From Escherichia coli (GTDB taxonomy: Bacteria; Pseudomonadota; Gammaproteobacteria; Enterobacterales; Enterobacteriaceae), in assembly GCF_003334355.1 (NCBI RefSeq), contig NZ_QOWP01000008.1: 64,000 nucleotides of DNA; one strand, given 5' to 3'. Shown piece by piece: positions 16,830 through 19,800 of this stretch. Position numbers: made by a program. Each line of letters opens with the position of its first letter. Position 1 is the stretch's first letter.

Positions 16830-19800
16830 TCAGCCCGCTTGCCTGCTCCAGCCGCGCGCAAATGTCTTTAAAGTTAAAAGTATGCGGCCCCATCAATACC
16901 GGAATAGCGTGTGCGGCAGCTTCCAGCGGATTATGCCCACCACGTTCAACCAGTGAACCGCCAACAAAGGCGAGATCGGCAATGCCATACAGTAACATCA
17001 ACTCGCCCATCGTATCGCCAACCACAACCTGCGTGCTGGTGGAGGGGACTTCCCCTGAAGAGCGTGTGATATAGCTTAGTCCAGCCTGGCGGACAAGGTT
17101 AATCGCATCCGGGAAGCGTTCTGGATGACGGGGTACCAGGATGAGCAATAAATTCGGGAATTGCTGTAACAATGCCTGATGTGCGGCGATCACCACACTC
17201 TCTTCGCCTTCGTGAGTGCTGGTGGCAATCCATACCGGGCGGTGTGGTGCCCACTGGCGGCGCAGCGTCACGGCTTTAGCAGCCAGCTGCGGCGTTACAG
17301 AAATATCGAATTTCAGGCTACCGGTAACGGTTACCTGGTTATTTTTTGCGCCCAGCGCCACAAAACGTGCACCATCTTCTTCATTTTGGGCGGCAATCAG
17401 CGTAATACGACGCAGCAAGCGACGGACGAATTTACCCAGTTTGGCATAACCTGCGGCCGAGCGGGCAGAGAGTCGCGCGTTAGCGATCACCAGCGGAATT
17501 TTACGTTTATGTAGCGCCGCAATCAGGTTAGGCCATAGTTCGGTTTCCATAATCAACACCAGTTTAGGGTCGACTTTATTCAGGAAACGGTTGAGTGCAT
17601 CGGGCAGATCATACGGCAGATAAACGTGCTGAACATCCTTCCCGAAAGCCGATTGTACGCGCTCCGAACCGGTTGGTGTCATGGTTGTAACGGTAATCGG
17701 TAAATCAGGATAACGATGACGCAGCGCGCGCACCAACGGGATCGCCGCCAGAGTTTCACCGACGGAGACGGAGTGCAGCATAATGCCGCCTGGTTTTAGC
17801 GGATGGCGGTAAAAACCGTAACGTTCACCCCAGCGTTTTCGATAGGCCGGAGCCTTACGTCCGCGCACCCAGAGCCGTATCCAGATCAGCGGCTGAATAA
17901 GGTAGAGAAGGGCGGTGTAAAGCAATTCGAGCATAGTAAATAGCTGACTTATGGATGTGCTGGGGATTCTATGTATTTAGCTGTGGCTTTACCATTACTT
18001 TTCCCGTTTTTGACTTAAATAGCAATTTACCCGCCAATTCTTGCTGAACATCTATACTTTTTTTGTATTTTATGCGATTCATTGATTTCTGCTGTACGTG
18101 CAGGAAGGAATCGCAGAGCAACAGTGAAAGAATATGGTTGCTAATGATTATATTTGATTGATTTCTTTATTGAAAATCAACAATGTGCTTAAAAATCATT
18201 CGGGTCGGATTGCCGCGAAAGAAGTGATACACTAGCGCGTCAATATCAGTGCGGTATCAGTATTCAGGTAGCTGTTGAGCCTGGGGCGGTAGCGTGCTTT
18301 TTCTGCTTCACCTTAATCGGATAATCTCAACAAAAAGAGTTACTTGTGGATAAGCCATTTCGAAGAATTTTGCTCATTAAGATGCGTTTTCATGGGGATA
18401 TGTTATTAACTACTCCCGTCATTAGTTCGCTGAAAAAAAATTACCCTGACGCAAAAATCGATGTGCTGCTTTATCAGGACACCATCCCGATCCTGTCTGA
18501 AAATCCAGAGATTAACGCGCTCTACGGCATAAAAAATAAAAAAGCAAAAGCCTCAGAAAAAATTGCCAACTTTTTTCATCTCATCAAGGTATTACGTGCC
18601 AATAAGTATGACCTTATCGTCAATCTTACCGATCAATGGATGGTTGCTATACTGGTTCGCTTATTAAATGCCCGTGTGAAAATTTCCCAGGATTATCATC
18701 ATCGGCAGTCTGCTTTTTGGCGTAAAAGTTTCACCCATTTGGTGCCGTTGCAGGGTGGAAATGTGGTGGAAAGTAACTTATCCGTGCTGATACCATTGGG
18801 ACTTGATTCGTTGGTGAAGCAGACAACCATGAGTTACCCGCCTGCAAGCTGGAAACGTATGCGTCGCGAACTTGATCACGCTGGTGTTGGACAAAATTAT
18901 GTGGTTATCCAACCTACGGCGCGGCAAATCTTCAAATGCTGGGACAACGCCAAGTTTTCCGCTGTGATTGATGCCTTACATGCTCGTGGTTATGAAGTCG
19001 TTCTGACGTCCGGCCCAGATAAAGACGATCTGGCCTGCGTCAATGAAATTGCGCAGGGATGCCAGACGCCACCAGTAACGGCGCTGGCTGGAAAGGTGAC
19101 CTTCCCGGAACTTGGTGCGTTAATCGATCATGCGCAGCTGTTTATTGGCGTTGATTCCGCACCGGCGCATATTGCCGCTGCAGTTAATACGCCGCTGATA
19201 TCGCTGTTTGGTGCGACAGACCATATTTTCTGGCGTCCCTGGTCAAATAACATGATTCAATTCTGGGCGGGAGATTACCGGGAAATGCCAACGCGCGATC
19301 AGCGTGACCGAAATGAGATGTATCTTTCGGTTATTCCGGCGGCAGATGTCATTGCTGCTGTCGATAAATTACTGCCCTCCTCCACGACAGGTACGTCGTT
19401 ATGATCGTTGCTTTTTGTTTATATAAATATTTTCCCTTTGGCGGTTTGCAGCGCGATTTTATGCGTATTGCTCAGACAGTCGCCGCCCGAGGTCATCATG
19501 TTCGGGTTTATACCCAGTCGTGGGAAGGCGAATGCCCTGATGTATTTGAACTGATCAAAGTACCGGTTAAATCGCATACCAATCACGGGCGCAATGCGGA
19601 GTATTTTGCCTGGGTGCAAAAACATTTACGCGAACATCCCGTCGATAAAGTCGTTGGATTCAACAAAATGCCGGGGCTGGACGTTTATTATGCCGCTGAT
19701 GTTTGTTATGCCGAGAAAGTAGCGCAGGAGAAAGGCTTTTTCTATCGCCTGACGTCACGTTATCGCCATTATGCCGCCTTTGAGCGGGCAACCTTCGAAC

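What the first reader, a model, noticed from the sequence alone, without database searches (positions are those of the whole stretch)
18241..18345. ops element upstream of waaQ
GGCGGTAGCGTG at 18285-18296 matches the ops consensus in the leader of the long core operon. This predicts RfaH-dependent antitermination through the AT-rich distal genes waaO through waaL.
Basis: partly seen in the sequence, partly recalled or inferred. Interest (0 to 1): 0.2.

Follow-up and report, generated by a model that had tools for sequence, protein, structure and literature searches.

The report
Known RfaH loading site before waaQ
This is the well-known ops/JUMPstart signal in the leader of the E. coli LPS-core (waaQ) operon, where the anti-termination factor RfaH boards RNA polymerase so that the long AT-rich operon is fully transcribed; it is real, but ordinary and already described.

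Summary
Observation confirmed and interpretation supported; the feature is already known. GGCGGTAGCGTG sits at 18285-18296 (+), the only full ops 12-mer in the window. It is the 3' end of a complete 39-nt JUMPstart element (18258-18296; Rfam RF01707, 55.2 bits against a gathering score of 35). The window is an E. coli chromosome. The element lies in the waaA/waaQ divergent intergenic region, 45 nt downstream of the start site inferred from MG1655 rirA and 50 nt upstream of the waaQ GTG. It heads a nine-gene operon, waaQ to waaL, whose distal six genes average 34.7 % GC. Leaders of K-12 rfbB and wza, and 107 further JUMPstarts from Enterobacterales, share only this block, and its stem covaries. 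Between E. coli core types the spacer upstream is scrambled while the leader is nearly invariant. rfaH is present in all 5426 complete E. coli genomes. Published ChIP and genetics show RfaH acting on waa. The same 73 nt correspond to the annotated sRNA RirA. One untested extra: in waaQ-type leaders, ops forms the 3' arm of a longer hairpin followed by a U-run, which looks like a terminator.

The parts
16657..17934 (-). waaA (Kdo transferase), divergently transcribed; marks the left edge of the intergenic region
   Evidence: NCBIfam NF004385, 905.7 bits; annotated waaA in the closest genome
18225..18233 (+). Candidate extended -10 promoter element TGaTACACT, ending 7 nt before the inferred start site
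   Evidence: My reading of the sequence against the start site inferred. It lies in the invariant block of alignment A1. The consensus scan instead proposed TTGAAA-18-AATCAT at 18170-18199. Inference only.
18240..18312 (+). Counterpart of the 73-nt sRNA RirA, which is the first 73 nt of the waaQ mRNA; contains JUMPstart and ops
   Evidence: MG1655 ncRNA rirA b4760 aligns to this stretch. Present at 90 % identity or more in 5425 of 5426 complete E. coli genomes. Function as described in PMC5736990, PMC6358824 and PMC8745692.
18258..18296 (+). JUMPstart element (39 nt)
   Evidence: Rfam RF01707, model positions 1-38 of 38, 55.2 bits against a gathering score of 35. Shared block with the K-12 rfbB and wza leaders.
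18265..18283 (+). JUMPstart stem-loop: arms 18265-18269 (CAGGT) and 18279-18283 (GCCTG), 9-nt loop
   Evidence: Rfam consensus structure. On 100 sequences, 98 % of cells are paired against 89 % in shuffles, and 45 cells show a change on both sides against 15 +/- 2.8 (0 of 500 shuffles reach this). Stem-loop previously noted in PMC2864571.
18285..18296 (+). ops element GGCGGTAGCGTG, the RfaH recruitment site read on the non-template strand
   Evidence: Exact match, unique in the window. The bases shown to be needed for RfaH (C3, G4, G5, T6, A7, G8) and the TG at positions 11-12 are all present, compared with PMC5995543.
18295..18295 (+). Predicted pause position U11 (RNA 3' end): G at -10 (18286), pyrimidine at -1, G at +1 (18296)
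   Evidence: Sequence reading against the consensus pause and the ops pause at U11 described in PMC5995543. Inference for this locus.
18248..18302 (+). Hypothetical longer hairpin: AGTGCG at 18248-18253 pairs with CGTGCT at 18293-18298, enclosing JUMPstart and ops, followed by the T-run 18298-18302. It looks like a terminator.
   Evidence: Minimum-free-energy fold of 18240-18312. RNAalifold predicts the same structure on 12 waaQ-type leaders. 97.2 % of cells are paired, but only through one-sided changes. A U-run follows ops in 12 of 19 waaQ-type leaders and in 0 of 41 wza, rfbB or galF leaders. Not significant by fold energy (z = -0.46).
18346..19404 (+). waaQ (rfaQ), heptosyltransferase III, first gene of the operon
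   Evidence: NCBIfam NF007742, 712 bits; annotation
19401..21315 (+). waaG and waaP (rfaP), the promoter-proximal genes at about 48 % GC
21331..27208 (+). AT-rich distal genes: waaO, a GT8 gene, waaY, a second GT8 gene, a GT25 gene and waaL (O-antigen ligase); 34.7 % GC, with gaps of 9-34 nt between genes

Best explanation
The sequence is the ops element of the E. coli waaQ (LPS core) operon, at the 3' end of a canonical 39-nt JUMPstart element in the 5' UTR. The mechanism below is established for ops in general and inferred here by identity. RNA polymerase starts at about 18240, transcribes 56 nt and pauses at U11 of ops (18295). In the open bubble the non-template strand GGCGGTAG folds into a small hairpin (C3:G8) that flips out T6. 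[quoted passage not shown] RfaH then stays on the polymerase to the end of the operon. It suppresses pausing, keeps NusG off (and with it Rho-dependent termination), helps load the ribosome on a leader with a weak Shine-Dalgarno sequence, and lets transcription pass through H-NS-coated AT-rich DNA. The result is full expression of the distal genes waaO to waaL (34.7 % GC). The first 73 nt of the same transcript correspond to RirA, an sRNA reported to bind RfaH and dampen this activation.
For: Shown here. The 12-mer is exact and unique in the window. There is a full-length JUMPstart covariance-model match, the only Rfam hit in the window. The element is on the sense strand, in the leader between the inferred start site and the waaQ start, ahead of a contiguous nine-gene operon. 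The block alone is shared with the K-12 rfbB and wza leaders. It is also shared with 107 JUMPstarts from more than 30 genera, which precede waaQ (18), wza (17), rfbB (16) and galF (8) homologues. The stem covaries. Between E. coli core types the spacer upstream is scrambled, and WaaQ itself is only about 73 % identical, yet 18185-18305 is almost invariant. rfaH is present in 5426 of 5426 complete E. coli genomes. GC drops from 47.6 % to 34.7 % after waaP. From the literature: the bases required in ops and the non-template hairpin (PMC5995543); RfaH ChIP signal on rfa in CFT073 and K-12, on H-NS-coated DNA (PMC9765446); Rho- and H-NS-linked polarity in waa, and rfaH-null phenotypes (PMC5449661); RirA (PMC8745692, PMC5736990, PMC6358824).
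Against: Nothing contradicts it. Several limits apply. RfaH binding, pausing and antitermination were not and cannot be measured here. The start site is transferred from the MG1655 annotation and was not mapped in this strain. The experiments were done in K-12 and CFT073, whose outer-core genes differ from those here. The motif count alone is weak evidence, since 9-20 % of shuffles give a comparable hit. The role of the JUMPstart half upstream of ops is not settled.
Confidence: 0.93

Rival explanations
1. The leader also contains a terminator-like attenuator. The RNA segment 18248-18253 pairs with the 3' end of ops plus one base (18293-18298), closing a compound hairpin that is followed by UUUUU. 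Polymerases that did not load RfaH would terminate there, yielding RirA-sized transcripts. RfaH-modified polymerases would read through. This adds a layer to the main explanation and does not replace it.
For: This is the minimum-free-energy and centroid fold of 18240-18312. RNAalifold predicts the same structure on 12 waaQ-type leaders from 8 genera. 97.2 % of cells are paired, against 29-54 % when partners are slid. The 5' arm differs between lineages (GUGCG against CACG) yet stays complementary. A U-run directly after ops is found in 12 of 19 waaQ-type leaders and in none of 41 wza, rfbB or galF leaders. The annotated RirA 3' end lies 10-14 nt after the hairpin.
Against: The fold is no more stable than shuffled sequence (z = -0.46; z = +0.51 for the whole UTR). 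All variation is one-sided transitions opposite G or U, which keep pairing almost automatically. The shuffle control is uninformative because the 3' arm never varies (73 of 500). The leaders are orthologous and therefore not independent, which weakens the Fisher p of 0.018. The simple terminator scan found nothing. The stem next to the U-run is weak, with two G-U pairs out of six. The annotated RirA 3' end is 5-6 nt beyond where termination would be expected. The waaQ leaders of Kosakonia, Pectobacterium and some Citrobacter lack the feature.
Confidence: 0.25
2. The element works mainly as RNA, not through the non-template DNA strand. In this reading the JUMPstart hairpin and ops in the nascent transcript, or in free RirA, are what RfaH or another factor recognises.
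For: The stem covaries. It tolerates G-U pairs, and its innermost pair is an invariant U-G, which fits RNA better than DNA. Rfam files JUMPstart as a cis-regulatory RNA. [quoted passage not shown]
Against: [quoted passage not shown] The covarying stem lies upstream of ops and does not include it. A sense-strand DNA hairpin cannot be distinguished from an RNA hairpin by covariation.
Confidence: 0.07
3. The 12-mer is a chance occurrence with no function.
For: 9-20 % of shuffled windows contain a comparable match. The 8-mer core occurs four more times in the window, inside coding sequence.
Against: There is a full 39-nt JUMPstart match at E = 2.5e-11. The position in the leader is the same as in 18 waaQ homologues across about 10 genera. 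The leader is nearly invariant while its flanks diverge. The four other 8-mers lack the TG at positions 11-12 and the JUMPstart block.
Confidence: 0.01

Closest known systems
ops element of RfaH-controlled operons (waa/rfa, rfb, kps, hly, tra) in E. coli and Salmonella
   Same: The 12-nt sequence is identical to the K-12 waaQ, rfbB and wza copies. It sits on the sense strand in the leader. All bases required for RfaH and for the pause are present. It is the orthologue of the K-12 waaQ ops.
   Different: Nothing of substance. The downstream outer-core genes belong to a different core type from K-12: waaO, GT8, waaY, GT8, GT25, waaL rather than waaS, B, O, J, Y, Z, U.
JUMPstart element (Hobbs and Reeves 1994; Rfam RF01707)
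   Same: Full-length match above the gathering score. The stem-loop plus ops architecture is the same. It lies upstream of a polysaccharide or LPS operon.
   Different: The second stem pair is A-U here (18266:18282), where the rfb and wza copies have U-A. This is a compensatory variant seen in 11 of 100 sequences.
RirA sRNA (MG1655 b4760)
   Same: It occupies the same position, the first 73 nt of the waaQ transcript, contains JUMPstart and ops, and is about 92 % identical by my count on alignment A3.
   Different: The T-run is one base shorter, and there are a few substitutions at the 5' and 3' ends. Whether a discrete sRNA accumulates in this strain is unknown.
Other NusG-paralogue loading sites (Bacteroides UpxY leaders, LoaP) and lambda-type processive antitermination signals
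   Same: A leader-encoded signal converts RNA polymerase into a termination-resistant form for one long operon (PMC11685472 was listed; the rest is from general knowledge).
   Different: These use different factors and different signals. This locus is not a member of those systems.

Membership tests
ops (RfaH recruitment site) | 12-nt sequence GGCGGTAGnnTG on the non-template (sense) strand | tested here: met
   Exact GGCGGTAGCGTG at 18285-18296 on the + strand, the same strand as waaQ
ops (RfaH recruitment site) | Bases needed for RfaH recruitment (C3, G4, G5, T6, A7, G8) and C3:G8 complementarity for the non-template hairpin | tested here: met
   All are present in the sequence. The requirement is taken from PMC5995543.
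ops (RfaH recruitment site) | Pause signal: TG at positions 11-12, G at -10 relative to U11 | tested here: met
   T18295, G18296 and G18286, compared with PMC5995543. Pausing itself was not measured.
ops (RfaH recruitment site) | Lies in the transcribed leader, downstream of the promoter and upstream of the first gene of a long operon | tested here: met
   The start site transferred from the MG1655 rirA 5' end maps to 18240. waaQ starts at 18346. Nine contiguous genes follow. The start site was not mapped in this strain.
ops (RfaH recruitment site) | The cognate factor RfaH is encoded by the organism | tested here: met
   rfaH is found in 5426 of 5426 complete E. coli genomes, at 90 % identity or more and full length. 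It is not inside this window.
ops (RfaH recruitment site) | RfaH binds here and raises expression of distal genes | not testable with these tools
   Shown for waa/rfa in K-12 and CFT073 by ChIP and genetics (PMC9765446, PMC5449661)
JUMPstart (Rfam RF01707) | Covariance-model score at or above the gathering threshold over the full model | tested here: met
   55.2 bits against 35, model positions 1-38 of 38
JUMPstart (Rfam RF01707) | A 39-nt block shared between otherwise unrelated leaders of polysaccharide operons | tested here: met
   Only the block aligns with the K-12 rfbB and wza leaders. The same holds for 99 further distinct elements.
JUMPstart (Rfam RF01707) | Conserved stem-loop upstream of ops, supported by covariation | tested here: met
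   98 % of cells paired. The two outer pairs show changes on both sides. 0 of 500 shuffles reach the observed score.
RirA sRNA | Sequence and position homologous to MG1655 b4760 | tested here: met
   Aligns over its whole length to 18240-18312
RirA sRNA | A discrete ~73-nt transcript that binds RfaH | not testable with these tools
   Reported for K-12 only (PMC5736990, PMC6358824). The primary paper is not held in the library.

The most novel reading that the evidence does not exclude
In the waaQ lineage of leaders (Escherichia, some Citrobacter, Pluralibacter, Kluyvera, Silvania, Shimwellia, Cedecea), ops doubles as the 3' arm of a compound terminator-like hairpin followed by a U-run. The site where RfaH loads would then also be an attenuator. 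Polymerases that miss RfaH would terminate and release RirA, which in turn titrates RfaH. That would form a self-limiting feedback loop built into about 60 nt.
Probability: 0.2. Interest if true: 0.4.

Novelty: already known. Interest (0 to 1): 0.08.

Why it matters
It matters little as a discovery. The ops/JUMPstart element of waaQ has been a textbook RfaH target since the 1990s. It is in Rfam, and the overlapping sRNA is annotated in MG1655. Its value here is as annotation. It marks the start and the regulatory logic of the LPS-core operon in this genome, explains how nearly 6 kb of 30-38 % GC, H-NS-prone DNA gets expressed, and serves as a positive control for the scan. The only open thread is whether the U-run and the upstream complementary arm, both specific to waaQ-type leaders, make a real attenuator that generates RirA.

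Tried and rejected
(1) Motif statistics alone: 9-20 % of shuffles give a comparable hit, so I did not rely on them. (2) The simple promoter and terminator scan found no terminator. Its promoter hit at 18170-18199 does not fit the start site inferred from rirA, so I prefer an extended -10 at 18225-18233, which remains unproven. (3) RNA folding of the UTR and of the RirA-sized piece gave z-scores of +0.51 and -0.46, so there is no energetic support for an unusually stable structure. (4) The extended hairpin was tested by pair counts. The shuffle control cannot discriminate because the ops arm is invariant, and the association of the U-run with the upstream arm (Fisher p = 0.018) is inflated by shared ancestry. 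I kept it as a lead only. (5) The four other GGCGGTAG cores in the window all lie inside coding sequence, without the TG at positions 11-12 or a JUMPstart, and I rejected them as ops sites. (6) 13 of the 120 genome-scan hits, from non-Enterobacterales, lack the rest of the block and were treated as chance. (7) The primary RirA paper (JBC 2016) is not in the held library, so I used reviews and the MG1655 annotation instead. (8) I did not determine the core type. R1 against R4 turns on the identity of the GT25 gene, and it does not bear on the finding.

Full report
OBSERVATION. The sequence GGCGGTAGCGTG is present exactly at 18285-18296 on the + strand. It is the only match in the 64-kb window, even with one mismatch allowed. 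The consensus form GGCGGTAGNNTG also occurs once. On motif statistics alone this is weak: 20 of 100 shuffles (one mismatch allowed) and 9 of 100 (consensus form) contain at least one match. Base composition predicts 0.007 exact copies. The decisive point is that the 12-mer is the 3' end of a full-length match to the Rfam JUMPstart covariance model RF01707. The match spans 18258-18296, covers model positions 1-38 of 38, and scores 55.2 bits against a gathering score of 35 (E = 2.5e-11). It is the only gathering-level Rfam hit in the whole window.

CONTEXT. The window is an E. coli chromosome. A 501-nt piece around the site is 100 % identical to strain PSS-12, and 5425 of 5426 complete E. coli genomes hold a match to the region. 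The element lies in the divergent intergenic region between waaA (16657-17934, minus strand) and waaQ/rfaQ (GTG at 18346, ending 19404, plus strand). Both genes are identified by NCBIfam equivalog models well above their cut-offs and by the RefSeq annotation of the matching genome. Downstream, nine genes follow on the same strand, with overlaps or gaps of at most 34 nt. They are waaQ, waaG, waaP, waaO, a GT8 gene, waaY, a second GT8 gene, a GT25 gene and the O-antigen ligase waaL, ending at 27208. Beyond that the convergent waaC-waaF-rfaD genes begin. GC content is 47.6 % for waaQ-G-P and 34.7 % for waaO to waaL. The lowest values are 30.0 % (GT25 gene) and 32.1 % (waaL), against 49.0 % for the window.

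TRANSCRIBED LEADER. The MG1655 RefSeq record annotates a 73-nt ncRNA, rirA (b4760), immediately upstream of waaQ. It aligns over its full length to window 18240-18312. [quoted passage not shown] By transfer, the start site is at about 18240. A plausible extended -10 (TGaTACACT, 18225-18233) sits at the right distance, but this is my reading only. The consensus scan proposed a different, upstream site.

I made three comparisons.
- Within E. coli, the waaA-waaQ intergenic region exists in at least three forms that are only 76-78 % identical to this one. Aligned, the central spacer (about 18025-18180) is scrambled. The stretch 18185-18305 is almost invariant, and the 39-nt JUMPstart has a single variable column. 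This holds even though WaaQ itself is only about 73 % identical between this window and the K-12-type allele.
- In MG1655, the same Rfam model hits the leaders of rfbB (60 bits) and wza (57.3 bits). Aligned with the waaQ leader, only the 39-nt block is shared and the flanks are unrelated.
- One scan of the species-representative genome collection used a pattern that leaves most of the stem free. Of these, 107 carry the rest of the JUMPstart block. The other 13, from unrelated phyla, do not, and I treated them as chance. The first downstream ORF is a homologue of WaaQ in 18 cases, Wza in 17, RfbB in 16 and GalF in 8.
- The WaaQ cases come from Escherichia, Citrobacter, Shimwellia, Kosakonia, Pluralibacter, Kluyvera, Silvania, Cedecea, Pectobacterium and Candidatus Symbiopectobacterium. 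In the 13 of 18 leaders where the ORF start could be called reliably, ops ends 35-49 nt before the start codon.
The flanking JUMPstart conservation is therefore present and the refutation fails.

THE JUMPSTART STEM. On 100 distinct sequences, the Rfam stem (window 18265-18269 with 18279-18283) is paired in 98 % of cells, against 89 % in shuffles. There are 45 cells with a change on both sides, against 15 +/- 2.8, and 0 of 500 shuffles reach this. The two outer pairs vary (C-G/U-A/U-G and U-A/A-U/G-U/G-C). The inner three pairs are invariant, including a U-G pair. This window carries the A-U variant of the second pair, where rfb and wza have U-A. A conserved stem-loop in JUMPstart was already reported by Weinberg et al. 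2010 (PMC2864571), so this is confirmation and not a new result.

MECHANISM. Every base that Zuber et al. found necessary for RfaH recruitment is present: C3, G4, G5, T6, A7 and G8, with C3:G8 closing the non-template hairpin that flips out T6. So are the TG at positions 11-12 and the G at -10 that make ops a consensus pause with the RNA 3' end at U11, here 18295 (PMC5995543). rfaH is present, full length, in 5426 of 5426 complete E. coli genomes.
Published experiments show that RfaH associates with polymerase on the rfa/waa operon in CFT073 and K-12 and stays bound along the operon, on DNA coated by H-NS (PMC9765446). They also show that the phenotypes of an rfaH deletion are attributed to Rho-dependent polarity in waa, and that rho and hns mutations suppress them (PMC5449661).
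What is shown here is identity, position, strand, conservation, the presence of the factor gene and the composition of the distal genes. What is inferred by identity with the studied copies is pausing, RfaH loading, exclusion of NusG and Rho, ribosome recruitment and counter-silencing of H-NS. The waaQ start has only a weak Shine-Dalgarno-like AAGAG six bases upstream. This fits published statements that these leaders lack a canonical ribosome-binding site (PMC6358824).

A LEAD BEYOND THE FINDING. Folded as RNA, 18240-18312 forms one compound hairpin. In it, AGUGCG (18248-18253) pairs with the last four bases of ops plus the next two (CGUGCU, 18293-18298). The hairpin encloses the JUMPstart stem and is followed by UUUUU.
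- RNAalifold predicts the same structure on 12 waaQ-type leaders from 8 genera.
- 97.2 % of cells pair, and the 5' arm differs between lineages (GUGCG against CACG) while remaining complementary.
- A U-run directly after ops is found in 12 of 19 waaQ-type leaders, and in none of 41 wza, rfbB or galF leaders.
This looks like an intrinsic terminator whose 3' arm is ops. It could be how RirA is made, and it could be an attenuator that RfaH overrides. The evidence is weak, however.
- The fold is no better than shuffled sequence (z = -0.46).
- All variation is one-sided transitions opposite G or U.
- The shuffle control is uninformative because the ops arm never varies.
- The leaders are orthologous.
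- The terminator scan found nothing.
- The annotated RirA 3' end is a few bases further downstream than termination would predict.
- A literature search for RirA together with 'intrinsic terminator' found no paper that discusses this. The primary RirA paper is not held in the library.
I rate it at about 0.2-0.25.

COMPARISON WITH KNOWN SYSTEMS AND VERDICT. The locus meets every sequence-level defining feature of ops, of JUMPstart (RF01707) and of the rirA locus. The functional features (RfaH binding, a discrete sRNA) cannot be tested with these tools, but they are documented for the orthologous K-12 and CFT073 loci. It is the orthologue of a textbook element, in a strain whose outer-core genes differ from K-12. 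Novelty: already known. Interest: low (0.08).

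Noticed in passing
window 7384-7391 (+), 43996-44003 (-), 48234-48241 (+), 54524-54531 (+): There are four further copies of the 8-nt ops core GGCGGTAG, making 5 in the window against 1.33 expected (0 of 100 shuffles reach 5). 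All lie inside coding sequence: one in sense within the 560-aa ORF 43874-45556, the others antisense. None has TG at positions 11-12 or a JUMPstart. This is probably a codon-usage effect (GGC GGT) that dinucleotide shuffles do not model.
   Followed up: partly
window 18346 versus 18382: The waaQ start is ambiguous. PGAP and the NCBIfam model use the GTG at 18346 (352 aa), preceded by a weak AAGAG. The MG1655 annotation starts at the ATG that corresponds to 18382, 12 codons downstream. The GTG and its upstream AAAAGAGT are conserved across E. coli core types and several genera.
   Followed up: partly
window ~18025-18180; L002, L003: The middle of the waaA-waaQ intergenic region is essentially unalignable between E. 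coli core types, while both ends are conserved. The window's WaaQ is closer to those of Citrobacter sp. R56 and Silvania (80-81 % amino-acid identity) than to the K-12-type E. coli WaaQ (73 %). This suggests that the exchange boundary of the core-type cassette lies inside this spacer.
   Followed up: partly
L004 (E. coli SW07163, NZ_CM129852.1) 1-490: An IS1 element is inserted in the waaA-waaQ intergenic region roughly 100 nt upstream of the inferred waaQ start site. It separates waaA from waaQ but leaves the promoter-proximal leader, JUMPstart and ops intact.
   Followed up: no
window 25147-25920 (+): The penultimate operon gene is annotated as a GT25-family glycosyltransferase, has no NCBIfam hit, and has the lowest GC of the operon (30.0 %). 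The gene order waaO, GT8, waaY, GT8, GT25, waaL resembles the R1/R4 core types. From memory, a GT25 enzyme would point to R4 (WaaX). I did not test this.
   Followed up: no
L027 (contig labelled Arthrobacter sp. GMC3), L081 (Erysipelotrichia MAG), L091 (Thomasclavelia MAG): Genuine JUMPstart elements occur on short, low-coverage contigs assigned to Gram-positive organisms. The L027 copy matches the K-12 rfbB JUMPstart and its upstream flank. These are most likely enterobacterial contamination or mis-binned contigs, not JUMPstart elements outside the Proteobacteria.
   Followed up: no
(E. coli genomes): One of the 5426 complete E. coli genomes has no match to the waaQ leader, and one genome carries a second copy on a plasmid. 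Neither was examined.
   Followed up: no
L005 24985-25034 (-) and 20525-20595 (+): In the MG1655 colanic-acid cluster, Rfam also reports an algC RNA motif just upstream of cpsG (76.6 bits) and a REP-derived naRNA4 between wcaK and wzxC (72.9 bits). Neither is related to the finding.
   Followed up: no
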